Assembly (NCBI GenBank): GCA_964016885.1 | Contig: OZ024742.1 | Span: 144,522,001 to 144,586,000 of the forward strand | Direction of reading: 5' to 3' | Length of the DNA stretch: 64,000 nucleotides | DNA from: Eledone cirrhosa | Lineage: Eukaryota | In this document: positions 1,330 through 44,294 of the stretch, one piece after another | How positions within the stretch are numbered: position 1 is the first letter of the stretch | How the letters are laid out: every line of letters starts with the position of its first letter | The notes under the pieces: generated by a model | Told to the model about the DNA's origin: nothing | Seen by the model: the letters and a program-made list of their open reading frames with translations, nothing else | The model's database searches: none | Position numbers and translations under genes: made by a program

Positions 1330-2660
1330 CGATGGCTGAAGGAAAGGATGGATTATTCGCAGAGAATTTTAGGTATGGCGTTGAGAGACTAGAAGAAATC
1401 ATGCATAAACTACTTCTCGAAATATGGCGGGAGAAAAAGTACCTAAGGATTGGAAAGATGCAATAATGATCCTTTTATACCAGACCAAATGCTAGCTCTT
1501 GTCTGTGCCGCAGGGAAAATTCCTGCATCACTTATGCTTTCAAGACTAAATGTTACATCAAACCCGATCTTACCAGAATCACAATGTGCCTTTCACCCCC
1601 CCCTCCTAGTACTAACTATATGATATTGACAGTCCGTCAAATTCAAGAAACGTGTTACGACAACAACAGAACTTGTGTCAGGTATTTTTGGATTTAACAA
1701 AAGCTCTTGATAGTTGCTTTGTGGGAAATTGTTGTCAGGGTAGGGTTCCCGAAACACTTTTCTATTATAACCGAATGCCTTTATATCGACATAGAAGCTG
1801 GGATAAATATTGGTGGTACTATTTCAGAGCCTATCAAAGTTAAAAATTGTGTTAATCAGAGTAATCTCATGCTTGTTATTCTTTTCTCTATCTATTTCTT
1901 TAAGGGGTTGAAATAAAGGCATCATCATCTGGTATCGCTCCTTAGGAAAGCTTTTCAACATCAGGCGAATTACTTTACGCTGATGAGTGTGATCCAGTTT
2001 CCCATTTACTCATAGATATGCAAAACTTCATGAATATACTATCATGTAACGCCTTCATGAATTCACTATCATGTAAAGTCTTTGGATTAACTGTAGTAAT
2101 GTTTTAACCTGCAGCAGGATTTCCTTATATCGTTCCATCCATTCACGTAGAGGAACAAAATCTCCAAGTAGTCCATACGTTTCCATATCTGAGAAGTACA
2201 ACTAACCAGTATTGAACATCAAAAATACAATCGATTCTTAGGGTACGTCTTTGGAGTTGGAAGTTAATTAGAAAATACATGAAAATCGAGACATGGATTG
2301 TCTATCGCAGGCACATTCAACTTCTCGATAGTTTCACCAGCATTGCCAGCGTGATATTCTTGTGGATTCACCGGAGACACAGCAGACACTGAACTATTAC
2401 AAAATGCAGGTTCAGTGAACATTGAAGCTTACACCCACATGCACCGACTCTGATGGGTGGGCCTTGCTTGTTAGATCTGACGACAGCACAAACCAAAACT
2501 GCATTTCAAGGATTGTGTGAAAGACTCCTTAACACAATGCAAAATCGACCCATCTCGCTGGGAGACCATAGCATTATATAGAAACAAGTGGCACATTGGT
2601 GTATCTAACGATGTAAAACATTTTCTAGAATCCGCTTCGTAACGCTCTATCATTAAACGT
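1330..2660 (+). mobile_element. Decayed RTE (BovB-like) LINE reverse transcriptase region
   Basis: Fragments PKDWKDA, ILPESQCAF, DMILTVRQIQE, VFLDLTKA, LWEIVVRVGFP, FPYLRS, WIVYRRHIQLLDSFHQ occur in RTE order, broken by frameshifts. Confidence 0.75.
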
Positions 2661-3127
2661 GCAGATAAGAAAGGTCGGCATGTGGAGAAACTCTGAACCT
2701 CAGTTTATATGTGGCTGAATATGCCTGACAAAACCTGGCAATACAAGCCAACTACGTAAGCATGAAGAAATGCCAAAGGTTGAATACGATCAATTCCTTA
2801 CAGCCAATTTGACATGTGATACATGTAATTTTCGAATAAGTCAGGACATACTACGCATTCAAAATTACATATTCATGATCCGAATCAGACTGTAAAGCCA
2901 AATAATGGAAGGGGTGAATTGTCTCACTCGTCTAACGAGCTCACTGTCATTTTGTATATTCTCCTGGTTTTATAATTTCACAAACTTTTTCCAAAGGAGA
3001 GAGAGCCGGTTTCTAACATAGATGTAAGACTCTCGCATTGGGATTTACACATCATCAACTTGGTACATATCTATGTATGACTGCATGTGTGTGCAGGCAT
3101 GGATGTTATTGTATGTATGCATGTACT

Positions 3128-3326
3128 ATTTGGATGGCCGTTGACTCTGCTGAATTCCTCCGCCCTTTACCGGGTCTTGTATTTCATCCTGCCGGGAGTC
3201 CAAATATCACCCTCCTCACCAAGCAAACTTGGTGGTGGTGGGGTTGCCGGTTTAGTCGCCTACGATCCGACCATGAGCCAGGTTGTACTGGGTTACATGT
3301 TACCAGTAGCACTCAAGAGCGACCTG
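3128..3326 (-). mobile_element. 5' part of an RTE-derived non-autonomous element
   Basis: Reverse complement of the GTCRGGTC...GGCGACTAAACCGGCAACCCC...GTCAACGGCCATCC head seen at 8322, 9427 and 40099. Confidence 0.7.
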
Positions 3327-3334
3327 AAATACCC

Positions 3335-3363
3335 ACATACATATACATACATACATACATATA

Positions 3364-3461
<98 letters not shown>

Positions 3462-3640
3462 AACATCCATAAATTGCATACATATATAAATACACATACA
3501 TACATAAATACACATACATATAAACATACATACATACATTACATACATACATTGATTAATACATTCATACATACATACATACATACATACATACATACAT
3601 ACATACATACATACATACATACATACATACATACATACAT
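3335..3640. repeat. Compound (TA)n/(TACA)n microsatellite
   Basis: Direct reading. Confidence 0.95.
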
Positions 3641-4176
3641 GATGGCTGCCCCCTCGTTATCGAGTATGGCCATCGCATGATATACCATTATTAATAATTA
3701 TTAATTAATTCTATCGTGCAATGCCTGTGCGTGAAAATATTTTTTAAAGTGAGGAAAGACTGTGCACTGAGCCAATCCCACTCTCTGAGCGACAATAGCT
3801 ATAACCGGAAAAGAAGAAAAGATCAACATCATCGGTAACTACTGAGCCGCAGGTTTTATATCGAAGTTATCCCAGTTTCCTGAGTTGCCTTCTCCTAGAA
3901 GAATGCCCTGACAAAGGCTAGGGGTCCTTCACTCCCAGTTGCTTAACCGCGCGGTACATGTGTATATATACATATTTACACACTTTCGGATGGCCGTTGA
4001 TTTTATGAGTTCTTCCGCTCTTTGTCAGGTTTTGTTTTTTGTCCTGCAGGGTGTCCAAAATCACCCTCCTCACCAAGTAAACTTGGTGGGGTTGCCGGTT
4101 TAGTCGCCGACGACCCGACCATGCGACAGGTTGTACTGGGTTACAAGTTACCAGTAGCACTCAAGAGCGACCCGAC
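3640..4176 (-). mobile_element. RTE-derived bipartite non-autonomous element, subfamily B
   Basis: Minus strand has an RTE 5'UTR motif (TGTCAGGGCA..TCTAGGAGAAGG) and an RTE-type 3' end (ATACTCGATAACGAGGGGGCAGCCATC). Flanked on both sides by (TATG)n; near-identical to 9427-10025. Confidence 0.75.
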
Positions 4177-4259
4177 ATACATACATACATACATACATAC
4201 ATACATACATACATACATACATACATACATACATACATACATACATACATACATACATA

Positions 4260-5801
4260 CATGTTTTCTTTGTTGATGACCTGAAGTTGTATGGGCCAAA
4301 TATCAATTACATCAAGAAACAATTGGACCTCATTACACAATTTTCAACCGACATCAAAATGAAATTTGGTGAGTCCAAGTGTGCATATTTGGCAGTAAAA
4401 CGTGGAAGAGCTGTGCCCTCCTCTAGAAATCTAGAGATGAACGGCCTGACAATACAACCTCTGCAGTCAGGTGACAACTACAGATATCTTGGACAGGATG
4501 AGAATGTCAGATATGATGGACCCATAAATAAGGAGAGAACCAGAACTGAATACCTCAGAAGAGTAAAGAAAATATGGTCATCAGAACTGTCAGCATACAA
4601 CAAATACATTGCCCACAATACTTATGCTGTGCCAATTCTAACGCCAACATTTGGCCTACTGAACTGGTCATTGCAAGAACTAAGTGAGATGGATGTTAGA
4701 ACTCGAAAACTTCTCAGTGTTACTGGCAACTTTAACATCAATGGTGATGTGGATAGGCTATACTTCTCACGCAAGGAAGGTGGCCGGGGTCTAAAATCAA
4801 TATTAACAACATATGAGACCCGGATAGTAACACTGAAGCAACACCTTCAACAGAGGAAAAAGGTTGGCAGCCATCTTGCCCAGGTTTATGAGCATGAAAA
4901 AAGAAATATCATTAGAATAGCGACTGATCTGGAGGAGAGATATGGAATAAAGCCTGATATAAATCTCTCACCCAGAGAAATCGGAAGATCCTATTCAATG
5001 TTCAAACAAGATAAGAAAATTGACCAATTTACAGAAAAAGTTGTGCGTGGATACTTGAGGCGTAAAACACAGACCATAGAGGGGATAAACCACTCAAAAT
5101 GCCTGGCATGGAGTTCCGACAAGTTTATGACATCACACCTTGAGGGATATCTCTATGCAATACAGGAACAAGAACTCCCTACCAAATATCTGCTGCACCA
5201 AAGAGGAGGGCCAGCAGCTGACAATAAATGTAGGCTATGTAAAACAAAGATCGAGGATGTAAGCCACATTGTTGCCAGCTGCGAAAGAATGTCATCTTGC
5301 TACTACCTCCCCATGAGACACGATGGGATAGCTAGAACCATCTGGAACGCACTTCGGAAAACAAAATTAACAACAAACGAGGAAGAATATATTGAGACGG
5401 ATGGCACTAAGGAATACTGGTGGAACCTGAAAATAAAAACTGCCACCAAATTAAAGCACAACCGGCCTGATATTGTAGTTTGGGACCACACATTGAAAAC
5501 GTGTTCTGTTGTGGAGATCAGCTGCCCACTTGATGTAAACGTTGTCAGAAAAATACAGGAGAAGGAGGACATCTACGGACCATTGATGAGGAGTTTACAA
5601 ATCCAGTATCCAAGATACACCTTTAGCTTCATACCCATCATTATTGGTGCTACGGGTTATATACCAACCCGCTTGGAACAAAGTATGACTGAACTTGGAT
5701 TTGCGGACAAAAAGCGCAGCTCCCTAATTCATAGTCTGCAGATGGCTGTGATAGCTGGCACCTTCAAAATTTGCAAAACATTCTTGCGATTCAAGGGATG
5801 A
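4260..5801 (+). CDS. Uninterrupted C-terminal ~510 aa of an R4/Dong polyprotein (no start codon; 5'-truncated)
   Basis: FVDDLKLY, YRYLG, RLYFSRKEGGRGL, AIQEQEL, CRLC-x7-HIVASC (CCHC), RHD, NRPDIVVWD..VVEISCP..KEDIY (PD-D/E-K RLE). Track ORF 4287..5801 extends in frame upstream. Confidence 0.85.
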   Translation, partial: HVFFVDDLKLYGPNINYIKKQLDLITQFSTDIKMKFGESKCAYLAVKRGRAVPSSRNLEMNGLTIQPLQSGDNYRYLGQDENVRYDGPINKERTRTEYLRRVKKIWSSELSAYNKYIAHNTYAVPILTPTFGLLNWSLQELSEMDVRTRKLLSVTGNFNINGDVDRLYFSRKEGGRGLKSILTTYETRIVTLKQHLQQRKKVGSHLAQVYEHEKRNIIRIATDLEERYGIKPDINLSPREIGRSYSMFKQDKKIDQFTEKVVRGYLRRKTQTIEGINHSKCLAWSSDKFMTSHLEGYLYAIQEQELPTKYLLHQRGGPAADNKCRLCKTKIEDVSHIVASCERMSSCYYLPMRHDGIARTIWNALRKTKLTTNEEEYIETDGTKEYWWNLKIKTATKLKHNRPDIVVWDHTLKTCSVVEISCPLDVNVVRKIQEKEDIYGPLMRSLQIQYPRYTFSFIPIIIGATGYIPTRLEQSMTELGFADKKRSSLIHSLQMAVIAGTFKICKTFLRFKG

Positions 5802-5881
5802 CAATTTCTTTTCTTTTACAACATTGCCACCAGGAAGGTGGCCGGTCAAAAAAATATACTCGAAATTAAGAGAAAGAGAAA
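4260..5881 (+). mobile_element. 5'-truncated R4/Dong-clade non-LTR retrotransposon (RT + CCHC + restriction-like endonuclease)
   Basis: Begins at HVFFVDDLKLY (RT catalytic motif) directly after (TACA)n. 3'UTR ends AATTAAGAGAAAGAGA, followed by (TACA)n. Confidence 0.9.
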
Positions 5882-6095
5882 ACATACATACATACATACA
5901 TGTTACCATTCGTCTACCACGGCAGTATTTCAGAAATAGGATAGACGAAATATGTAATATTATAGTGGTAAATGCTTGTACATCACGAGTACCACTCTTT
6001 GAGTATCCGCAACTAGAGTCAAGTGACATGCGGAAGCAAAATGCAGGTTTTAAAGAGTTTTCTTCTCACTTAATGACACTCATACATACGACACA

Positions 6096-6160
<65 letters not shown>

Positions 6161-6330
6161 CACACACACACTCACTCATACACGCACACATACACTCACA
6201 CACAAACACACATGCATACAAACAAACACACACGCCACTCACTTAAACACACTAACACACACACACACATATATATAAATACATATATATATATATATAA
6301 TTATATATATATAGTACTGTCATCATTAGA

Positions 6331-6512
6331 ATTGGCAGTATCGGTAGAGAGTCGGACGCCATGCTTTCCAGCATAGATACGTATCTTTACGGTCTGAGTT
6401 CAAATCCCGCCGAGGTTAACTTTGCCTTTCATCCTTACGGGGTCGATAAAATAAAGTACCAGTAATGTACTGGGTAAATGCTGGCCGTGTGCCAAAAGTA
6501 GAAACAATTATT
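6331..6512 (+). mobile_element. tRNA-derived SINE, family 1
   Basis: A-box-like TGGCAGTATCGG, B-box GAGTTCAAATCC, core GCCTTTCATCCTTACGGGGTCGATAAAATAAAGTACCAGT (resembles the Meta/Sauria SINE core), ATT tail; more than 12 copies in the window. Confidence 0.85.
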
Positions 6513-6539
6513 AATACTATAGATATGGCTAACTGCTGT

Positions 6540-6686
6540 CTTTTGAAAACTTTTGAAAGATCCATAGTTGTCGTCAGTGTGCGAAGGAGTGCAAGTCTCT
6601 AGCAGGTTTGAAATGCCATATCCGAGCATCACATCTGAATCTGACAAGCAATTGCAATACTCTTAGCAGAGTTTGCAGCCATCATG
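6540..6686 (+). mobile_element. RTE 3' end with C2H2 zinc finger and (TATG)n tail
   Basis: CRQCAKECKSLAGLKCHIRASH, then ATACTCTTAGCAGAGTTTGCAGCCATCATGTATG. Confidence 0.65.
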
Positions 6687-6749
6687 TATGTATGTATGAA
6701 TGTATGTATGTATGTATGTATGTATGTATGTATGTATGTATGTATGTTA

Positions 6750-7726
6750 TCTCTTTCTCTTAATTTCGAGTATATTTTTTTGACCGGCCACCTTTCTTGG
6801 TGGCAAGGTTGTAAAAGAAAAGAAATTGTCATCCCTTGAATCGCAAGAATGTTTTGCAAATTTTGAAGGTGCCAGCTATCGCAGCCATTTGTAGACTATG
6901 AATTAGGGAGCTGCGCTTTTTGTCCGCAAATCCAAGTTCAGTCATACTTTGGTCCAAGCGGGTTGGTATATAACCCGTAGCTCCAATAATGATGGGTATG
7001 AAGCTAAAGGTGTATCTTGGATACTGGATTTGTAAACTCCTCCTCAATGGTCCGTAGATGTCCTCCTTCTCCTGTATTTTTCTGACAACGTTTACATTAA
7101 GTGGGCAGCTGAACTCCACAACAGAACACGTTTTCAATGTGTGGTCCCAAACAACAATATCAGGCCGGTTGTGCTTTAATTTGGTGGCAGTTTTTATTTT
7201 CAGGTTCCACCAGTATTCCCTAGTGCCATCTGTCTCAATATATTCTTCCTCGTTTGTTAATTTTGTTTTCCGAAGTGCGTTCCAGATGGTTCTAGCTATC
7301 CCATCGTGTCTCATGGGGAGGTAGTAGCGAGATGACATTCTTTCGCAGCTGGCAACAATGTGGCTTACATCCTCGATCTTTGTTTTACATAGCCTACATT
7401 TATTGTCAGCTGCTGGCCCTCCTCTTTTGTGCAGCAGATATTTGGTAGGGAGTTCTTGTTCCTGTATTTCATAGAGATATCCCTCAAGGTGTGATGTCAT
7501 AAACTTGTCGGAACTCCATGCCAGGCTTTTTGAGTGGTTTATCCCCTCTATGGTCTGTGTTTTACGCCTCAAGTATCCATGCACAACTTTTTCTGTAAAT
7601 TGGTCAATTTTTTTTATCTTGTTTGAACATTGAATAGGATCTTCCGATTTCACTGGGTGAGAGATTTATATCAGGCTTTATTCCATATCTCTCCTCCAGA
7701 TCAGTCGCTATTCTAATGATATTTTT
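6750..7726 (-). mobile_element. 5'-truncated R4/Dong copy 2
   Basis: Near-identical reverse complement of ~4904-5880; ORF 6829..7653; 1-nt frameshift in an A-run near 7610; microsatellite on both sides. Confidence 0.9.
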
Positions 7727-7824
7727 ATGTTTGTATGAATGTATGTATGTATGTATGTATGTATGTATGTATGTATGTATGTATGTATGTATGTATGTAT
7801 GCATGCATGCATGCATGTATGTAT

Positions 7825-8302
7825 AGGACTAAAAACAAAACCTGTCAAAGGGCAAAGGAGCTCTTAAGAGTCAATGGCCATCCAAAATCACCGGGAGAGA
7901 TGACCCCTTAGCCTTTGTCAAGGCAGAATTCTAGGAGAAGGAAAACTCTGAAATAACACCTGCAACCCTGATGGTATCCAATGATGTTGACTTGTTCTTC
8001 TTTTTTGGTAAATATCTTCTTGGTTAAGAGAGTGGGACTGGCTTTGTGCAGTGCCTTTGCTCACTATAAAAGCTTCCGGCACAGGCATTGCTTTATAACT
8101 GGAGATCTCTCTGCACTTGTCGTCACATGGTACCATGGGCCCAGCACTGTGTGTCAATAATTGTCACAGGTGTAGTGTTTGTACCAGAGTTTTCAAGTCG
8201 CTGGCTGGACTCAAAAGTCACACTCGTTCAGCGCATCGGTAGGGGTTCTCCTACATGGATATAAAGTAGTGGCCATACTCGAAAACGAGTTGGCAGCCAC
8301 CA
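7825..8302 (+). mobile_element. 5'-truncated RTE-derived non-autonomous element, subfamily A
   Basis: Matches 8452-8927; (TATG)n on both sides. Confidence 0.8.
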
Positions 8303-8321
8303 TGTATATGTATGTATGTAT

Positions 8322-8927
8322 GTCAGGTCACCAGTTGGTGCTACTGGTAACATGTATCCCAGTACAACCTGTCTCATGGTCGGGTCGTTAGCGACTAAAC
8401 TGGCAACCCCACCAAGGTTTCATGGTGAGGAGGGTGACTTTGGACATCCTGCAGGACTAAAAACAAAACCTGTCAAAGAGCAAAGCTCTTAAGAGTCAAT
8501 GGCCATCCAAAATCACCGGGAGAGATGACCCCTTAGCCTTTGTCAAGGCAGAATTCTAGGAGAAGGAAAACTCTGATATAACACCTGCAACTCTGATGGT
8601 ATCCAATGATGTTGACTTGTTCTTCTTTTTAGTAAATATCATCTTGGTTAAGAGAGTGGGACTGGCTTTGTGCAGTGCCTTTGCTCACTAAAAAAGCTTC
8701 ACGGCACAAGCATTGCTTTATATCTGGAGATCTCTCTGCACTTGTCGTCACATGGTACCATGGGCCCAGCACTATGTGTCAATAATTCTCACAAGTGTAG
8801 TGTTTGTACCAGAGTTTTCAAGTCGCTGGCTGGACTAAAATGTCACACTCGTTCAGTGCATCGGTAGAGGTTCTCCTACATGGATATAAAGTAGTGGCCG
8901 TACTCGAAAACGAGTTGGCAGCCACCA
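8322..8927 (+). mobile_element. Full-length RTE-derived bipartite non-autonomous element, subfamily A (~606 bp)
   Basis: RTE 5'UTR motif TCTAGGAGAAGGAAAACTCTG fused to a terminal zinc-finger remnant CSVCTRVFKSLAGLKCHTRSVH* and 3' end TACTCGAAAACGAGTTGGCAGCCACC; near-identical to 40099-40707. Confidence 0.8.
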
Positions 8928-8940
8928 TGTATGTATGTAT

Positions 8941-9385
8941 GCGCTACTGGTAACATGTAACCCAGGGTGATTTTGGATGTCCTGCGGGATGAAAAACAAA
9001 ATCCGCCAAAGGACGGAGGAACTCAGGAGATTCAACGACCATCCAATAAAGTTTTTTCTTTTTTGCAGGAACGAGAGACTCCTAGTCGTCATTAAGAAAT
9101 ATCTCTAGGAGAAGGTCACTCTGATATATAACCTGCGACTTCGTATGCATCCAATGATGTAGACCAGTTCTTCTTTTTGGCTAAATGCATCGATGTTCAG
9201 AGAGTGTGATTGGCTCGGTGCAAAGCCTTTCCTCACTTAATAAAGCTTCAAGCACAGGCATCGCTTGATATGTGACACTTTTTTGCGATGCATGGCATTG
9301 TTGGCCATAGGCAAGTCCCTAGAAGGACTAAAAAGCTTAAGTATCAAGCGAAGGCTTTACTCGAAATCGAGTTTCCACCATCATG
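8941..9385 (+). mobile_element. Internally deleted RTE-derived element, divergent third variant
   Basis: Shares GCTACTGGTAACATGTAACCCAG, TCTAGGAGAAGG and TACTCGAAATCGAG..CACCATCATGTA blocks. Confidence 0.7.
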
Positions 9386-9426
9386 TACGTATGTATGTAC
9401 ATGTATGTATATATGTATGTGTACAT

Positions 9427-10025
9427 GTCGGGTCACTCTTGAGTGCTACTAGTAACATGTAACCCAGTACTACCTGTCGCATGGTCGGGTCGGCGGTGAC
9501 TAAACCGGCAACCCCACAAAGTTTACTTGGTGAGGAGGGTGATTTTGGACACCCAGCAGGATAAAAAACAAAACCTCACAAAGGGCGGAAGAACTCATAA
9601 GGGTCAACGGCCATCCAAAAGTGTGTAAATATGTATATACACATGTACATATGCATGGGTGCATGTGTAGTATATGCACGGTGACATAGAAATAGTCGGG
9701 CTGGACACCCGATCGCGCTGTTAAACCACTGGGAGTGAAGGACCACTAGCCTTTGTCAGGGCATTCTTCTAGGAGAAGGTGCCTCAGGAAACTGGGATAA
9801 CTCCGAAATAAAACCTGCGGCTCAGTAGTTACCGATGATGTTGATCGTTTCTTCTTTTCGGATTATAGCTACTGTTGCTTAGAGAGTGGGATTGGCTCAG
9901 TGCACAGTCTTTCCTCACTTTAAAAATATCTTCACACACAGGCATTGCACGATAGAATTAATTAATTATTAATAATGGTATATCGTGCAATGGCCATATT
10001 CGATAACGAGGGGGCAGCCATCATC
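9427..10025 (+). mobile_element. RTE-derived bipartite non-autonomous element, subfamily B
   Basis: Reverse complement of 3640-4176 with an extra ~55 bp segment; (TATG)n tail. Confidence 0.8.
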
Positions 10026-10058
<33 letters not shown>

Positions 10059-10095
10059 TGTATGTATGTATGTATGTATGTATGTATGTATGTAT

Positions 10096-10382
10096 ATCTC
10101 TTTCTCTTAATTTCGAGTATATTTTTTTGACCGGCCACCTTCCTGGTGGCAAGGTTGTAAAAGAAAAGAAATTGTCATCCCTTGAATCGCAAGAATGTTT
10201 TGCAAATTTTGAAGGTGCCAGCTATCGCAGCCATTTGTAGTCTATGAATTAGGGAGCTGCGCTTTCTGTCCGCAAATTCAAGTTCAGTCATACTTTGGTC
10301 CAAGCGGGTTGGTATATAACCCGTAGCTCCAATAATGATGGGTACGAAGCTAAAGGTGTATCTTGGATACTGGACTTGTAAA
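10096..10382 (-). mobile_element. Short 3' fragment of R4/Dong, copy 3
   Basis: LQVQYPRYTFSFVPIIIGATG...KTFLRFKG* plus 3'UTR; (TATG)n on both sides. Confidence 0.9.
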
Positions 10383-10449
10383 TGTATGTATGTATGTATG
10401 TATGTATGTATGTATGTATGTATGTATGTATGTATGTATGTATACAAAC

Positions 10450-10600
10450 AGTGTTACACACTGTGCCATGCAAAACCTCTCTAAGAACTAGGTTGAGAGT
10501 ACTCGTATCTGTGCGATACTCAGCCACTTGCGCGGTGATTTCACGAGGTGTTTGATTGTTCGAATAACTGTAACACGCGTCGGGGAAACCAGAAGAGGTC
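10450..10600 (+). mobile_element. Decayed SINE, family 2 fragment
   Basis: GAGAACTA..GTATCTGTG..CTCAGCCACTTGC blocks shared with 22430-22660 and 41300-41420. Confidence 0.45.
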
Positions 10601-10645
10601 CAACATATATTATATTGCTAAATATTTGTGTGTGCGTACGTGTGT

Positions 10646-10713
<68 letters not shown>

Positions 10714-11194
10714 TTTACACCTTAATTTTTAACGTCAAATCAATGAACGTACCATTAGCTGAATTGATAATAACGCGAACGTTAAGGGGTTAATCCTTAT
10801 ACTGACCAGCTTTCGCTTTTCTTCTTTCATTTTATTCTTTTGGTATATAGGCGTATACATTTATATTATGAGTTTGACTTCCGACAAGATTGACTTTATC
10901 TTTATTATGCGAACATATAAAGTTACATTTAATATTTAAAATCAACCCCACTCTACTTTCGTTTATAAGTTTGAACATTGCTAAAGTTGAATTTATCTTT
11001 ATTATGTGAACATAAAGTATGTTTCAACCTCTACTTTATGCATTAATCTCTCTATATATTGTATTAAATCTCTGATGGTGTTATTTTCTATTTTCAAATA
11101 TATCGAGAACTCCTCGAAAATATGGCTCTAATCTAGAGAATATTTCAAAATGTCTGAGTGCATGTATGTGTTACATTTATTCCCAAGTATCGAC

Positions 11195-18071: not shown

Positions 18072-18210
18072 TCATCCAGTGTCACGCCTCACTATCTCCA
18101 CATATCGCTTCCATTCTCCACGGTCATTCATAATGGTTATGAGCTCTTTCACTCTCTCCATCCCTGTGTCTTCTAGCAGAGTGTCTACGTAGGTGATTTT
18201 TCTCCTTCCT
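18072..18210 (-). mobile_element. 3' end of an RTE-group LINE ORF
   Basis: RGRRKITYVDTLLEDTGMERVKELITIMNDRGEWK matches the typical RTE C-terminus (GRP..TY.D.L..D.G....EL...M.DR.EW). Confidence 0.7.
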
Positions 18211-19440
18211 CTACAAGTCCTTCCCTCAGTAGGTTGCCATAACACTAACATGTTTACCACCTCATCAATGTGTTTGATGCAGTGGCCTGTGAGTCGCACC
18301 CTTTGTCTACAAGTCCTTCCCTCAGTAGGTTGCCATAACACTAACATGTTTACCACCTCATCAATGTGTTTGATGCAGTGGCCTGTGAGTCGCACCCTTT
18401 GTCTACAAGTCCTTCCCTCAGTAGGTTGCCATAACACTAACATGTTTACCACCTCATCAATGTGTTTGATGCAGTGGCCTGTGAGTCGCACCCTTTGTCT
18501 ACAAGTCCTTCCCTCAGTAGGTTGCCATAACACTAACATGTTTACCACCTCATCAATGTGTCTGATGCAGTGGCCTGTGAGTCGCACCCTTTTTCTACAG
18601 GTCCTTCCCTCAGTAGGTTGCCATAACACTAACATGTTTACCACCTCATCAATGTGTCTGATGCAGTGGCCTGTGAGTCGCACCCTTTGTCTACAGGTCC
18701 TTCCCTCAGTAGGTTGCCATAACACTAACATGTTTACCACCTCATCAATGTGTCTGATGCAGTGGCCTGTGAGTCGCACCCTTTTTCTACAGGTCCTTCC
18801 CTCAGTAGGTTGCCATAACACTAACATGTTTACCACCTCATCAATGTGTCTGATGCAGTGGCCTGTGAGTCGCACCCTTTGTCTACAGGTCCTTCCCCTA
18901 GTAGGTTGCCATAACACTAACATGTTTACCACCTCATCAATGTGTCTGATGCAGTGGCCTGTGAGTCGCACCCTTTGTCTACAGGTCCTTCCCCTAGTAG
19001 GTTGCCATAACACTAACATGTTTACCACCTCATCAATGTGTCTGATGCAGTGGCCTGTGAGTCGCACCCTTTGTCTACAGGTCCTTCCCCTAGTAGATTG
19101 CCAGAACACTAACATGTTTACCACCTCATCAATGTGTCTGATGCAGTGGCCTGTGAGTCGCACCCTTTGTCTACAGGTCCTTCCCCTAGTAGGTTGCCAT
19201 AACACTAACATGTTTACCACCTCATCAATGTGTCTGATGCAGTGGCCTGTGAGTCGCACCCTTTGTCTACAGGTCCTTCCCCTAGTAGGTTGCCATAACA
19301 CTAACATGTTTACCACCTCATCAATGTGTCTGATGCAATGGCCTGTGAGTCGCACCCTTTGTCTACTGGTCCTTCCCTCAATAGGTTGCCATAACACTAA
19401 CATGTTTACCACCTCATCAATGTGTCTGATGCAGTGGCCT
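18211..19440. repeat. 96-bp tandem array, ~13 units, derived from an RTE LINE segment
   Basis: Period 96 (CTACAAGTCC at 18211, 18307...); unit encodes RQRVRLTGHCIRHIDEVVNMLVLWQPTEGRTC on the minus strand. Confidence 0.95.
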
Positions 19441-39604: not shown

Positions 39605-40057
39605 CCAGCCCAAAACGTGCCATCTCTTTTAAGACGGTGGGGTAATATTTGAGGAGAATTTGGTTGATATTTCTAGCAAGATCAACAACCGAAAGGAGGC
39701 TTATGTATAGGAAGCAGTTTCTGTTAATAATTCTCCGATTTAGTCAACTATATAACTGCTTTTGCTCTCCGGAAATTTCCATCATCATCCCGGAACTTTC
39801 TACGAGGATTTCTTATATTGGAATTATTTGCTCATACTGGGCCTCGGGAAATAAATTAGCCTACCGTTCCTGCCAGAAGTCTAGGGATATAATAAATGAT
39901 ATCAGTATTTTTAAATGTATCATAATTTCCTGTCATTTGAAAATAGGTTCATACTTATATTTGTTACCATACAACAGACTTCAAATAACTTTTAGATTCC
40001 ATCAAAACATATGTGTGTAAGTGTATGTATGTATGTGTATGTATGTGTATGTATATG

Positions 40058-40093
<36 letters not shown>

Positions 40094-40098
40094 TGTAT

Positions 40099-40707
40099 GT
40101 CAGGTCACCACTTGGTGCTACTGGTAACATGTATCCCAGTACAACCTGTCTCATGGTCGGGTCGTTGGCGACTAAACTGGCAACCCCACCAAGGTTTCTT
40201 GGTGAGGAGGGTGACTTTGGACATCCTGCAGGACTAAAAACAAAACCTGTCAAAGGGCAAGGGAGCTCTTAAGAGTCAATAGCCATCCAAAATCACCGGG
40301 AGAGATGACCCCTTAGCCTTTGTCAAGGCAGAATTCTAGGAGAAGGAAAACTCTGATATAACACCTGCAACCCTGATGGTATCCAATGATGTTGACTTGT
40401 TCTTCTTTTTGGTAAATATCATCTTGGTTAAGAGAGTGGGACTGGCTTTGTGCAGTGCCTTTGCTCACTATAAAAGCCTCACAGCACAGGCATTGCTTTA
40501 TATCTGGAGATCTCTCTGCACTTGTCATCACATGGTACCATGGGCCCTGCACTATGTGTCAATAATGGTCACAAGTGTAGTGTTTGTACCAGAGTTTTCA
40601 AGTCGCTGGCTGGACTAAAAAGTCACATTCGTTCAGCGCATCGGTAGGGGTTCTCCTACATGGATATAAAGTAGTGGCCGTACTCGAAAACGAGTTGGCA
40701 GTCACCA
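40099..40707 (+). mobile_element. Full-length RTE-derived bipartite non-autonomous element, subfamily A
   Basis: Near-identical to 8322-8927; (TATG)n on both sides. Confidence 0.82.
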
Positions 40708-41433
40708 TGTATGTATGTATGTATACGTGTGTATATATATATATATATATTTTGAGTATATGTTGGTTAGAACACCAATACTTATATATATATATATATA
40801 TATGTTAGTATTGGTGTTCTGAAATAGCGATGCATACATGAATGTATGTATAATATATTTGGCAATATACTGTATGAACACTATGGAGCAGATTCAAATT
40901 GAAAAATTGAAACGGGCCATGAAGCACTCAACTAGGGCTTCCATAGAAAATCAGACATAGTTGCAAACAATTAATTAATAAATCGAACTATAATAAACAT
41001 AATAAAAAGTTCAACTTACAATTTGAATACTGGTTAATCCACTGATAATGAAACGAAGCTATCGAATAGGATCGACACAGCTTCGATCATTTTCTCACTC
41101 ACTCAATAATTCAATTAAGGCAGTAACCGATGTTTCTTCAGTCATTATATTTATCTTAGTCATTCACTCTCATTCTTTAAATGTTTTCTCGTTACTGTGG
41201 TTTTTACCTCTAATAAGCCTTCGGTAAAGAGAAAGAAACCAAGCAGGACATGAAATACGCCCCGGTAATATTTATATGGCTGATTGGAATCACAGTACAA
41301 GAAAATACATGTCACACTTGTCACATTTGTGTCATGCTGAATCCCCTGAGAACTATGTGCTGGCATTTCTGTTGTTCGATCAACTGGATCATTCGTTATC
41401 GGAAGTGACTCCAGTCCAACATTAACAATACAA

Positions 41434-41683
41434 TGGTTTCTGATTTAGGCACAAAGTCAACAATTTTTGGAGAAGGGGGTAAGTCGATTAAATTGATCTT
41501 AGTGTGTTATTAGTACTTTATTTTATCGACCCCGTAAGTCAAAGCTTTATTTTATCGACCCCGTAAGTCAAAGCTAATCTCGGTGGGATTTGAACTCAGA
41601 TTGTAAAGAGACATAACTCTATGCTACAAAGCATGTTGTCCAACGCTTTACCGATACTGCTTTACCGATACTGCTAATCCGCC
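41434..41683 (-). mobile_element. tRNA-derived SINE, family 1, with internal tandem duplications
   Basis: TTTATTTTATCGACCCCGTAAGTCAAAGC x2 and CTTTACCGATACTG x2. Confidence 0.8.
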
Positions 41684-43171: not shown

Positions 43172-43520
43172 TACCACACCACCGCCACTAATACCACCAA
43201 CACCACCACCACCACTAACACCACCACCACCACTAATACCACCAACACCACCAACATCACTAACACCACCAACACCACCACCACCACTAACACCACCACC
43301 ACCACTAACACCAACACCACCACCACCACTAATACCACCAACACCACCAACATCACTAACACCACCAACACCACCACCACCACTAACACCACCACCACCA
43401 CTAACACCAACACCACCACCACCACTAATACCACCAACACCACCAACATCACTAACACCACCAACACCACCACCACCACTAACACCACCACCACCACTAA
43501 CACCACCAACACCACTAACA
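43172..43520. repeat. Higher-order (CCA/ACA/CTA) trinucleotide minisatellite
   Basis: Translates to repeated PPPPLIPPTPPTSLTPPTPPPPLTPPPPLTPT blocks (~96-bp period). Confidence 0.85.
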
Positions 43521-43734
43521 AACGCCATCACCATCGTTGCAATCACTGCCAACATCACTCAACTCCACTAGTAATAAACAACAATGTTGTCATCCATAAT
43601 ACCATCCACCATTATCCTCATCATCACTACCACCACCATCACTACTACCGACACCATCACTATCACCGCCACTACCATCACGATGACGTTGGGTTCCACC
43701 ATTACTACAACCACTATCATCGTTAACACTTCCT

Positions 43735-43876
43735 CCCCACCACCACTGCCACCATCACCGCCATCACCTTTAACACCTCCCCCACCACCACTACCACCAT
43801 CATCACCATCATCATCATCATCATCATCATCATCACCACCACCACTACCACCACCACCATCACCATCATCATCACC

Positions 43877-43937
<61 letters not shown>

Positions 43938-44076
43938 CCACCATCATCATCACCACCATCACCACCATCATCATCATCATCATCATCATCACCACCACCA
44001 CCACCACCACCACCACCACCACCACCACCACCATCATCACCACCACCGCCATCATCATCACCACCACCACCACCAT

Positions 44077-44147
<71 letters not shown>

Positions 44148-44194
44148 CCACCACCACCACCACCACCACCACCACCATCACCACCACCACCATC

Positions 44195-44240
<46 letters not shown>

Positions 44241-44260
44241 CCATCACCACCACCACCACC

Positions 44261-44294
<34 letters not shown>

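What the first reader, a model, noticed from the sequence alone, without database searches (positions are those of the whole stretch)
3128..10445. Two unrelated retroelement lineages share one microsatellite niche in opposite polarity
Seen: RTE-derived elements (3128, 3640, 6540, 7825, 8322, 8941, 9427; also 40099) carry (TATG)n on their sense strand, at the tail and usually at the head. Dong copies always carry the complement (TACA)n. At 6686-6750 and 10025-10096 an RTE tail is the array into which a Dong 3' end points (tail-to-tail); at 4176-4260 they are head-to-head. Inference: RTE tails seed (TATG)n arrays, which recruit further RTE derivatives by tail-target annealing and Dong by endonuclease targeting. 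This feed-forward loop would build multi-kb nested clusters and expand the microsatellite.
Basis: partly seen in the sequence, partly recalled or inferred. Interest (0 to 1): 0.72.

Follow-up and report, generated by a model that had tools for sequence, protein, structure and literature searches.

The report
Two retrotransposon clades sharing ACAT repeats
A 7-kb pile-up of two unrelated kinds of jumping gene sits in one four-letter DNA repeat, each kind always facing its own way, probably because each pairs the repeat at the end of its RNA with one strand of the target; the habit holds genome-wide and is a variant of known behaviour.

Summary
Window 2964-10445 is a nest of three 5'-truncated copies of a Dong-like LINE (RT, CCHC, restriction-like endonuclease) and seven pieces of an RTE LINE and its 602/608-bp internal-deletion derivatives, joined by (ACAT)n/(ATGT)n arrays.

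Polarity is strict genome-wide. The Dong tail is followed by (ACAT)3 1485 times and by (ATGT)3 once. The 608-bp element's tail is followed by (ATGT)3 8596 times and by (ACAT)3 twice. A second Dong-like family shares Dong's polarity.

- Both kinds cluster strongly, and always in opposite orientation.
Dong-bearing arrays end in an RTE tail no more often (14 of 58) than arrays in general (12 of 54; p=0.83).
- Young RTE derivatives have arrays on both flanks, half of them (AT)n, so they enter existing arrays rather than seed them.
- 31 of 54 sampled arrays touch neither family.

The likeliest mechanism (inferred) is that each RNA's repeat tail pairs with the nicked target strand, so opposite tails give opposite orientation.

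RTE microsatellite tails and Dong microsatellite targeting are published. The tetranucleotide target and the strand partition appear new in print. This scan had already noted them elsewhere in this genome.

The parts
2964..3124 (-). Relic of the 3' end of a second Dong-like family (Dong-B), 83% identical to the last 155 nt of a genomic copy
   Evidence: family defined
3129..3327 (-). RTE-derivative head fragment (positions 2-193 of the 602-bp element, 83%)
3335..3640 (+). Compound (ACAT)n/(AT)n array between two RTE-derived copies
3639..4176 (-). 602-bp non-autonomous RTE derivative, near full length, 92% identical to the copy at 9427
4175..4262 (+). (ACAT)22, head-to-head junction between the RTE-derivative head and the 5'-truncated Dong
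   Evidence: row 55
4263..5901 (+). Dong-A copy, Dong positions 2607-4224 plus (ACAT)5 tail. Open frame of 512 aa with CCHC and RLE motifs
6558..6685 (+). Last 130 bp of the autonomous RTE LINE (C-terminal C2H2 finger and short 3' UTR)
6684..6747 (+). (ATGT)16, tail-to-tail array between the RTE tail and a Dong 3' end
   Evidence: row 57
6750..7724 (-). Dong-A copy, 975 bp, 97.4% identical to the copy at 4263
7726..7824 (+). (TATG)25 array between the Dong 5' truncation point and the truncated 608-bp element
   Evidence: row 58
7825..8301 (+). 608-bp RTE derivative, 5'-truncated at position 132
8322..8926 (+). Full 608-bp RTE derivative (5' UTR plus 3' end of an RTE), flanked by (TATG)4 and (ATGT)4
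8964..9380 (+). Older, diverged RTE derivative (70-79% identical), followed by an imperfect (ATGT)n array at 9383-9428
9427..10028 (+). Full 602-bp RTE derivative
10029..10095 (+). (TATG)17, tail-to-tail array
   Evidence: row 59
10097..10382 (-). Dong-A 3' fragment, 286 bp
10382..10443 (+). (ATGT)15 array at the Dong 5' truncation point, followed by unique DNA
   Evidence: row 60
40022..40724 (+). Separate full 608-bp RTE derivative (40099-40706) with arrays at head and tail
   Evidence: row 62

Best explanation
The stretch is a nest of retrotransposon copies in one (ACAT)n/(ATGT)n microsatellite neighbourhood, and the opposite orientation of the two kinds likely follows from the repeat each RNA carries at its 3' end.

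Shown:
- Two Dong-like LINE families of the R2 superfamily, with a restriction-like endonuclease, always lie with (ACAT)n on their sense strand.
- An RTE LINE with an APE endonuclease, and its 602/608-bp internal-deletion derivatives, always lie with (ATGT)n or (AT)n on theirs.
- Both kinds usually have array on both sides, so they entered existing arrays.

Inferred:
- Each element is nicked into the array and primes reverse transcription by pairing its RNA tail with the nicked strand. (ACAU)n would pair with the (ATGT)n strand for Dong, and (AUGU)n with the (ACAT)n strand for RTE. They would therefore use opposite strands and end up in opposite orientation.
- An insertion splits the array into two arrays and does not destroy it, so a hit locus would remain a target, and a better one. 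This would explain the multi-kb same-polarity clusters.

Dong takes RTE-bounded arrays only in proportion to their share of all arrays.
For: Family identities:
- Dong-A has an ORF of about 1150 aa with RVT_1, a zf-RVT CCHC motif and RPD...E...K RLE motifs. Its best solved relatives are R2 proteins, E 1e-28.
- The RTE LINE is 3.95 kb, with Exo_endo_phos, RT, two C2H2 fingers and a 47-nt 3' UTR.
- Its head and tail are shared with the 602/608-bp elements.

Polarity:
- Pattern counts are 1485 to 1 and 8596 to 2.
- 29 of 29 Dong-A 3' ends and 29 of 29 Dong-B 3' ends conform.
- 25 of 25 RTE-family hits and 5 of 5 Dong hits conform in unbiased arrays.

Insertion into existing arrays:
- 19 of 29 resolved Dong 5' junctions have a clean array, and 5 more have a degenerate one.
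- The 608-bp element has 3' flanks of 14 ATGT-type, 14 AT-type and 1 other, and 5' flanks of 16, 5 and 8. None of 29 reads ACAT.
- One full-length RTE (L061) shows a roughly 27-bp target-site duplication that starts inside an (AT)n array.

Clustering:
- Observed against expected close neighbours for 608-type tails: 14 against 0.34.
- Dong tails with a 608-type tail nearby: 7 of 18 against 0.12 expected.
- Loci L318, L319 and L322 repeat the window's architecture.

Proportional use: 14 of 58 against 12 of 54, p=0.83.
Against: - No call shows the RNA 3' ends or the nick sites, so the annealing step is inference.
- Half of the young 608-bp copies lie in (AT)n arrays, where an (AUGU)n tail would pair imperfectly.
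- RTE LINE copies often lie at non-array sites with tails of 4-12 nt. 16 of 29 were classed as 'other', and one (L040) reads (ATAC)n after the tail.
- Exceptions to the element-to-element rule exist:
  - The Dong-B relic at 2964-3124 abuts an RTE fragment in the same orientation.
  - In L086 a 608-bp head is fused in sense to Dong with no array between them.
  - In L120 an inverted Dong fragment follows a Dong tail.
- Some clusters are copies of each other. L320 and L321 are 99% identical.
- The baseline holds only 54 arrays, 28 of them from one 5.5-Mb chromosome end.
Confidence: 0.7

Rival explanations
1. Strong feed-forward loop. RTE tails create most (TATG)n arrays, and these arrays preferentially recruit Dong, so RTE activity drives Dong's niche and expands the microsatellite.
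For: - 20 of 54 arrays have an RTE-family end at a flank.
- All three Dong copies in the window sit in arrays that touch an RTE-family piece.
- RTE-flanked arrays have a median length of 72 bp against 41 bp for unflanked ones.
- RTE elements are published as microsatellite progenitors (PMC2887409, abstract read).
Against: - There is no enrichment: 14 of 58 against 12 of 54 (p=0.83), and 7 of 19 against 14 of 54 (p=0.39).
- Young 608-bp copies have arrays on both flanks.
- Copies at unique sites carry tails of only 4-12 nt.
- 31 of 54 arrays touch neither family.
- The length difference may only mean that longer arrays are hit more often.
Confidence: 0.2
2. The strand choice is set by sequence-specific cleavage by each endonuclease. 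The repeat tails are only a by-product, copied from the flanking array by read-through transcription, and annealing plays no role.
For: - The review PMC3812793 (passages read) states that sequence-specific cleavage is believed to play the major role in microsatellite targeting.
- The 3' junction register is nearly fixed...GAGAAA|ACAT in most of 29 Dong-A ends and ...AGAAGAA|CATA in Dong-B.
Against: - A fixed register is equally expected from a templated tail.
- The RTE family accepts both (ATGT)n and (AT)n, which fits loose pairing or a TA-rich nick preference better than strict recognition.
- Nothing here separates the two models.
Confidence: 0.3
3. The multi-copy clusters arise mainly by unequal crossing-over or segmental duplication between arrays, not by repeated insertion.
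For: - L320 and L321, 1 Mb apart, are 99% identical across elements and flanks.
- Same-strand tandem runs of the 608-bp element occur at about 0.7-kb spacing.
Against: - In the window the neighbours are different families or differ in truncation point (positions 132 and 1; 602-bp, 608-bp and an older family) and in divergence (70-98%).
- L318 and L319 have different Dong truncation points, 2243 and 3939.
Confidence: 0.15

Closest known systems
Dong elements (Bombyx mori Dong, DongAg, snail DongBg), TAA-microsatellite-specific LINEs (PMC3812793, passages read)
   Same: - Single-ORF LINE with RT followed by CCHC and a restriction-like endonuclease.
- Sits inside a microsatellite in one fixed orientation.
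- Octopus repeat annotations list recently active 'Dong-R4' families: 1129 insertions covering 4.73 Mb, or about 4.2 kb each (PMC13282606, Table 1 read). That matches the 4.2-kb element here.
   Different: - The target is the tetranucleotide (ACAT)n, not (TAA)n.
- Two families only 49% identical in the C-terminal third share this target.
- Placement in the R4 clade was not tested here.
RTE LINEs as microsatellite progenitors (Tay et al. 2010, PMC2887409, abstract read) and octopus RTE-2_OV (PMC9115989, passages read)
   Same: - Single ORF with APE endonuclease and RT.
- Extremely short 3' UTR ending in simple-repeat units.
- Many 3' partial copies next to microsatellites.
- RTE-2_OV also has a C2H2 finger, an ORF of about 3.3 kb and a microsatellite starting right after the ORF.
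   Different: - The young derivatives here have arrays at both ends, so they land in existing arrays.
- They are internal-deletion derivatives (5' UTR plus 3' end), not only 3' fragments.
- They share arrays with an RLE LINE in strict opposite polarity.
Waldo elements (R1 clade), ACAY-microsatellite-specific APE LINEs (PMC3812793, passages read)
   Same: They target essentially the same repeat motif in a sequence-specific way.
   Different: - They belong to a different clade (R1, APE type) and were described in insects.
- The passages I read do not describe a second clade using the complementary strand.
Stringent-type LINE/SINE pairs with repeat tails such as eel UnaL2/UnaSINE1 (recalled, no paper opened)
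   Same: - A non-autonomous partner shares the LINE's 3' end.
- Terminal repeat units take part in priming.
   Different: - The partners here also share the LINE's 5' UTR.
- They are strongly array-bound.

Membership tests
Dong / R4 clade (RLE LINEs) | Single ORF with RT followed by a CCHC motif and a PD-(D/E)xK restriction-like endonuclease, and no APE domain | tested here: met
   - RVT_1 hit at E 7.6e-25 and zf-RVT at E 2e-5, below Pfam's cut-off.
- CRLCKTKIEDVSHIVASC, HNRPDIVVWD and VVEISCPLD...K are read directly.
- Best PDB relatives are R2 proteins, E 1e-28.
Dong / R4 clade (RLE LINEs) | Orientation-specific insertion into a microsatellite | tested here: met
   - Counts of 1485 to 1.
- 29 of 29 3' ends conform.
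- 24 of 29 resolved 5' junctions have a clean or degenerate array.
Dong / R4 clade (RLE LINEs) | Target is (TAA)n, as in the described Dong elements | tested here: not met
   The target is (ACAT)n in both Dong-like families.
Dong / R4 clade (RLE LINEs) | RT phylogeny places it with R4/Dong rather than R2, NeSL, HERO or CRE | not tested
   - No reference clade sequences were at hand.
- Named relatives are only 'hypothetical protein', with Argonauta hians the best at 65%.
- The label rests on architecture and on the octopus repeat annotations (PMC13282606).
RTE clade | One ORF with an N-terminal APE endonuclease and RT, element about 3-4 kb | tested here: met
   L061:2583-6533 is 3.95 kb and carries Exo_endo_phos (E 9e-9) and RVT_1. 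The copy examined has frameshifts.
RTE clade | Very short 3' UTR ending in simple-repeat units | tested here: met
   There are 47 nt between the stop codon and the repeat tail in L061. Tails are (ATGT)n or (AT)n.
RTE clade | RT/APE phylogeny places it within RTE | not tested
   - Indirect only: 8 named APE-domain relatives are called 'craniofacial development protein 2(-like)'.
- That this name marks Bov-B/RTE-derived genes is my recollection.
- The architecture matches RTE-2_OV, which its authors placed in RTE (PMC9115989).
SINE (for the 602/608-bp elements) | Head derived from tRNA, 5S or 7SL with an internal pol III promoter | tested here: not met
   - No tRNA, 5S or 7SL match at E<=1 in 2900-10500.
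- The head is the RTE LINE's own 5' UTR, 72-85% identical.
- They are internal-deletion derivatives of the LINE.

The most novel reading that the evidence does not exclude
(ACAT)n arrays in this cephalopod-type genome are a strand-partitioned, self-renewing safe harbour. RLE LINEs (two Dong-like families) own one strand, and an APE LINE (RTE) with its parasites owns the other. The repeat tail of the RNA alone dictates both target and orientation. On this reading the Dong lineage moved from (TAA)n to a tetranucleotide simply by changing its tail.
Probability: 0.3. Interest if true: 0.6.

Novelty: new variant of a known kind. Interest (0 to 1): 0.4.

Why it matters
- It gives a clean natural comparison of how an APE-type and an RLE-type LINE choose a target strand in the same simple repeat. 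This bears on the open question of how much target choice is made by the endonuclease and how much by RNA-target pairing.
- It extends the known targets of Dong-like elements to a tetranucleotide.
- About a third of (ACAT)n arrays touch an RTE-family end, which matters for repeat annotation and microsatellite marker design in cephalopods.
- It does not show a new mechanism. The specific RTE-to-Dong recruitment loop failed its test.

Tried and rejected
- Empty-site or polymorphism test. Only one public run held the flank. The second (9700-10800) gave only short contigs that break at the arrays, so it says nothing about presence or absence of the Dong fragment.
- A 5' self-cleaving ribozyme at the RTE head, which could explain the precise heads and co-transcription of tandem copies. 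The Rfam scan at E<=1 found no ribozyme. It found only sub-threshold miRNA-family hits that lie on the arrays themselves. These are composition artefacts.
- The C-terminal 512 aa of Dong alone gave no meaningful PDB hit. The full ORF did.
- The built-in control of the (ACAT)8 pattern search is meaningless, because the reversed pattern is the same repeat.
- The idea that the 602/608-bp elements are mobilised by Dong is rejected. Their head and tail are those of the RTE, and their polarity is the opposite one.
- Literature. Searches for cephalopod + microsatellite + LINE + ACAT returned 0 papers. A search for non-LTR + microsatellite + Dong + tetranucleotide returned 12 papers, and none of the 10 listed titles concerns a tetranucleotide-targeting Dong. 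Subscription journals and Repbase reports are not covered.
Full report
**What is there.** The window lies at C3:144,522,001-144,586,000 of a 3.0-Gb genome. The best named protein relative comes from the octopod Argonauta hians.

Three 5'-truncated copies of one LINE lie at 4263-5901(+), 7724-6750(-) and 10382-10097(-). Pieces of a second family lie at these places:
- 3327-3129(-)
- 4176-3639(-)
- 6558-6685(+)
- 7825-8301(+)
- 8322-8926(+)
- about 8964-9380(+)
- 9427-10028(+)
- 40099-40706(+)

All are joined by (ACAT)n/(ATGT)n arrays. The tail-to-tail junctions at 6684-6747 and 10029-10095, and the head-to-head junction at 4175-4262, are as described.

**The Dong-like element.**
- Near-identical copies (98-100%) are spread over the genome.
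- Two full-length copies (L156, L157) define a 4.2-kb unit. It starts right after an (ACAT)n array and ends ...AAGAGAAAGAGAAA(ACAT)n.
- The ORF of about 1150 aa has RVT_1, a CCHC zinc motif and RPD...E...K endonuclease motifs.
- Its best solved relatives are R2 retrotransposon proteins, E 1e-28.
- This is the architecture of the R2/R4/Dong group. I could not test the R4-clade phylogeny.
- Octopus annotations list recently active 'Dong-R4' families averaging about 4.2 kb per insertion (PMC13282606, Table 1).
- A second family, here called Dong-B, is 49% identical in the C-terminal third. It ends ...AAACCAGAAGAA(CATA)n in 29 of 29 copies.
- A relic of Dong-B lies at window 2964-3124(-).

**The RTE family.**
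- Window 6558-6685 is the last 130 bp of a 3.95-kb LINE (L061:2583-6533). That LINE has an APE endonuclease, RT, two C-terminal C2H2 fingers and a 47-nt 3' UTR.
- Eight named relatives of its APE domain are called craniofacial development protein 2(-like).
- The architecture matches the published octopus RTE-2_OV: EN, RT, a C2H2 finger, and a microsatellite right after the ORF (PMC9115989, passages read).
- The 602-bp and 608-bp elements share the LINE's 5' UTR head (72-85% identical) and an RTE-type 3' end with a zinc-finger coding relic.
- They are therefore internal-deletion derivatives, not SINEs. Rfam finds no tRNA, 5S or 7SL head.
- The 608-bp family is young (97-98% identical) and abundant, with more than 5000 first-look candidates.

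**Polarity genome-wide.**
- The Dong-A tail is followed by (ACAT)3 at 1485 places and by (ATGT)3 at 1.
- The 608-type tail is followed by (ATGT)3 at 8596 places and by (ACAT)3 at 2.
- I sampled 54 arrays without regard to elements. 26 came from 89 random 10-kb stretches, and 28 came from a census of the first 5.5 Mb of C1.
- In that sample all 25 RTE-family flank hits are antisense and all 5 Dong hits are sense to the (ACAT) reading.
- This scan had already noted the same pattern on other pieces of this genome (e1-9581594, e1-9521993, e1-9524059).

**Do they enter arrays or make them?**
- Dong-A has an array at the 3' end in 29 of 29 copies. It has one at the 5' junction in 19 of 29 resolved copies, plus 5 with degenerate arrays. 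This is true insertion into arrays.
- The 608-bp element has 3' flanks of 14 ATGT-type, 14 AT-type and 1 other. Its 5' flanks are 16 ATGT-type, 5 AT-type and 8 other, most of the 8 being imperfect mixtures. None of 29 reads ACAT.
- The young RTE derivatives therefore land in existing TA-rich arrays, and half of these are plain (AT)n, which Dong does not use.
- RTE LINE copies are less array-bound: 8 ATGT-type, 4 AT-type, 1 ACAT-type and 16 other. Copies at unique sites carry tails of only 4-12 nt.
- One full-length LINE has a roughly 27-bp target-site duplication that begins inside an (AT)n array.
- Seeding of long arrays by RTE tails is thus not shown here, although it is a published idea for RTE elements (PMC2887409, abstract).

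| Arrays examined | End in RTE-family sequence |
|---|---|
| Downstream of Dong-A ends (RTE tail) | 7 of 29 |
| Downstream of Dong-B ends (RTE tail) | 7 of 29 |
| Arrays in general (RTE tail) | 12 of 54 |
| Dong 5' side (RTE head or body) | 7 of 19 |
| Arrays in general (RTE head or body) | 14 of 54 |

- Fisher p is 0.83 for the 3' comparison. One tail in each of the three 3' sets was scored by eye because BLAST missed an older variant. With BLAST-only counts p=1.0.
- For the 5' comparison p=0.39.
- Dong therefore uses RTE-bounded arrays in proportion to their abundance.
- Against random genome positions the two kinds do co-occur strongly. 7 of 18 Dong tails on C1 (0-45 Mb) have a 608-type tail within 1.5 kb, against 0.12 expected, and all 7 are opposite in strand. 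Two of the seven are copies of one segmental duplication.
- The RTE derivatives also cluster with themselves. 14 of 99 successive gaps are at most 1.5 kb, against 0.34 expected, and all are on the same strand.
- A self-reinforcing pile-up at arrays is supported. A privileged RTE-to-Dong link is not.

**Mechanism.**
- The simplest reading is that each RNA ends in its own repeat and pairs with the nicked target strand to prime reverse transcription, so opposite tails give opposite orientation.
- An insertion leaves array on both sides, so the locus stays a target.
- These steps are inferred. No call shows RNA ends or nick sites, and strand-specific cleavage by the endonucleases explains the polarity equally well.
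- Unequal crossing-over contributes to some clusters (L320/L321). It does not explain the window, where neighbours differ in family, truncation point and age.

**Relation to print.**
- Dong elements targeting (TAA)n, Waldo targeting (ACAY)n, and retrotransposons as both makers and breakers of microsatellites are reviewed in PMC3812793 (passages read).
- My searches found no description of a tetranucleotide-targeting Dong, nor of the strand partition with RTE. Subscription journals and Repbase reports were not searchable.

**Verdict.** This is a confirmed, genome-wide, tidy pattern and a new variant of known behaviour.

Noticed in passing
window 2964-3124 (-) next to 3129-3327 (-): A relic of the second Dong-like family abuts an RTE-derivative head fragment in the same orientation with no clean array between them. 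This is an exception to the opposite-orientation rule. Dong-B may have inserted into the ACAT-like internal patch of the RTE derivative.
   Followed up: partly
window 6320-6480 and 41516-41575: A stretch with a tRNA B-box-like motif (GAGTTCAAATCCCGCC) is followed by ...CGGGGTCGATAAAATAAAG. The reverse complement of that end is tandemly duplicated at 41516-41575 (29-bp unit, 2.1 copies). It looks like a separate tRNA-related SINE family.
   Followed up: no
window 18210-19440: A 96-bp unit is repeated 12.8 times at 98% match. This is a young minisatellite or satellite of unknown origin.
   Followed up: no
window 43173-44276: A very long (ACC)n-type array of about 367 units at 76% match, followed by related ACC/ATC-rich repeats up to about 44845.
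   Followed up: no
L320 and L321 (C1 near 34.39 Mb and 35.42 Mb): Two loci 1 Mb apart are 99% identical over more than 3.4 kb, including Dong fragments, 608-bp elements and flanks. A segmental duplication has copied a whole nest.
   Followed up: partly
L086 and L120: Two odd junctions. In L086, positions 1-76 of the 608-bp element are fused in sense directly to Dong position 2038 with no array. In L120, an inverted internal Dong fragment follows a Dong tail array. These may be template switches or rearrangements.
   Followed up: no
L318, L319 (C1 near 18.99 and 19.02 Mb): In two independent loci exactly five ACAT units separate the Dong tail from the 608-bp element's tail. Other tail-to-tail arrays range from 14 to 125 bp.
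   Followed up: partly
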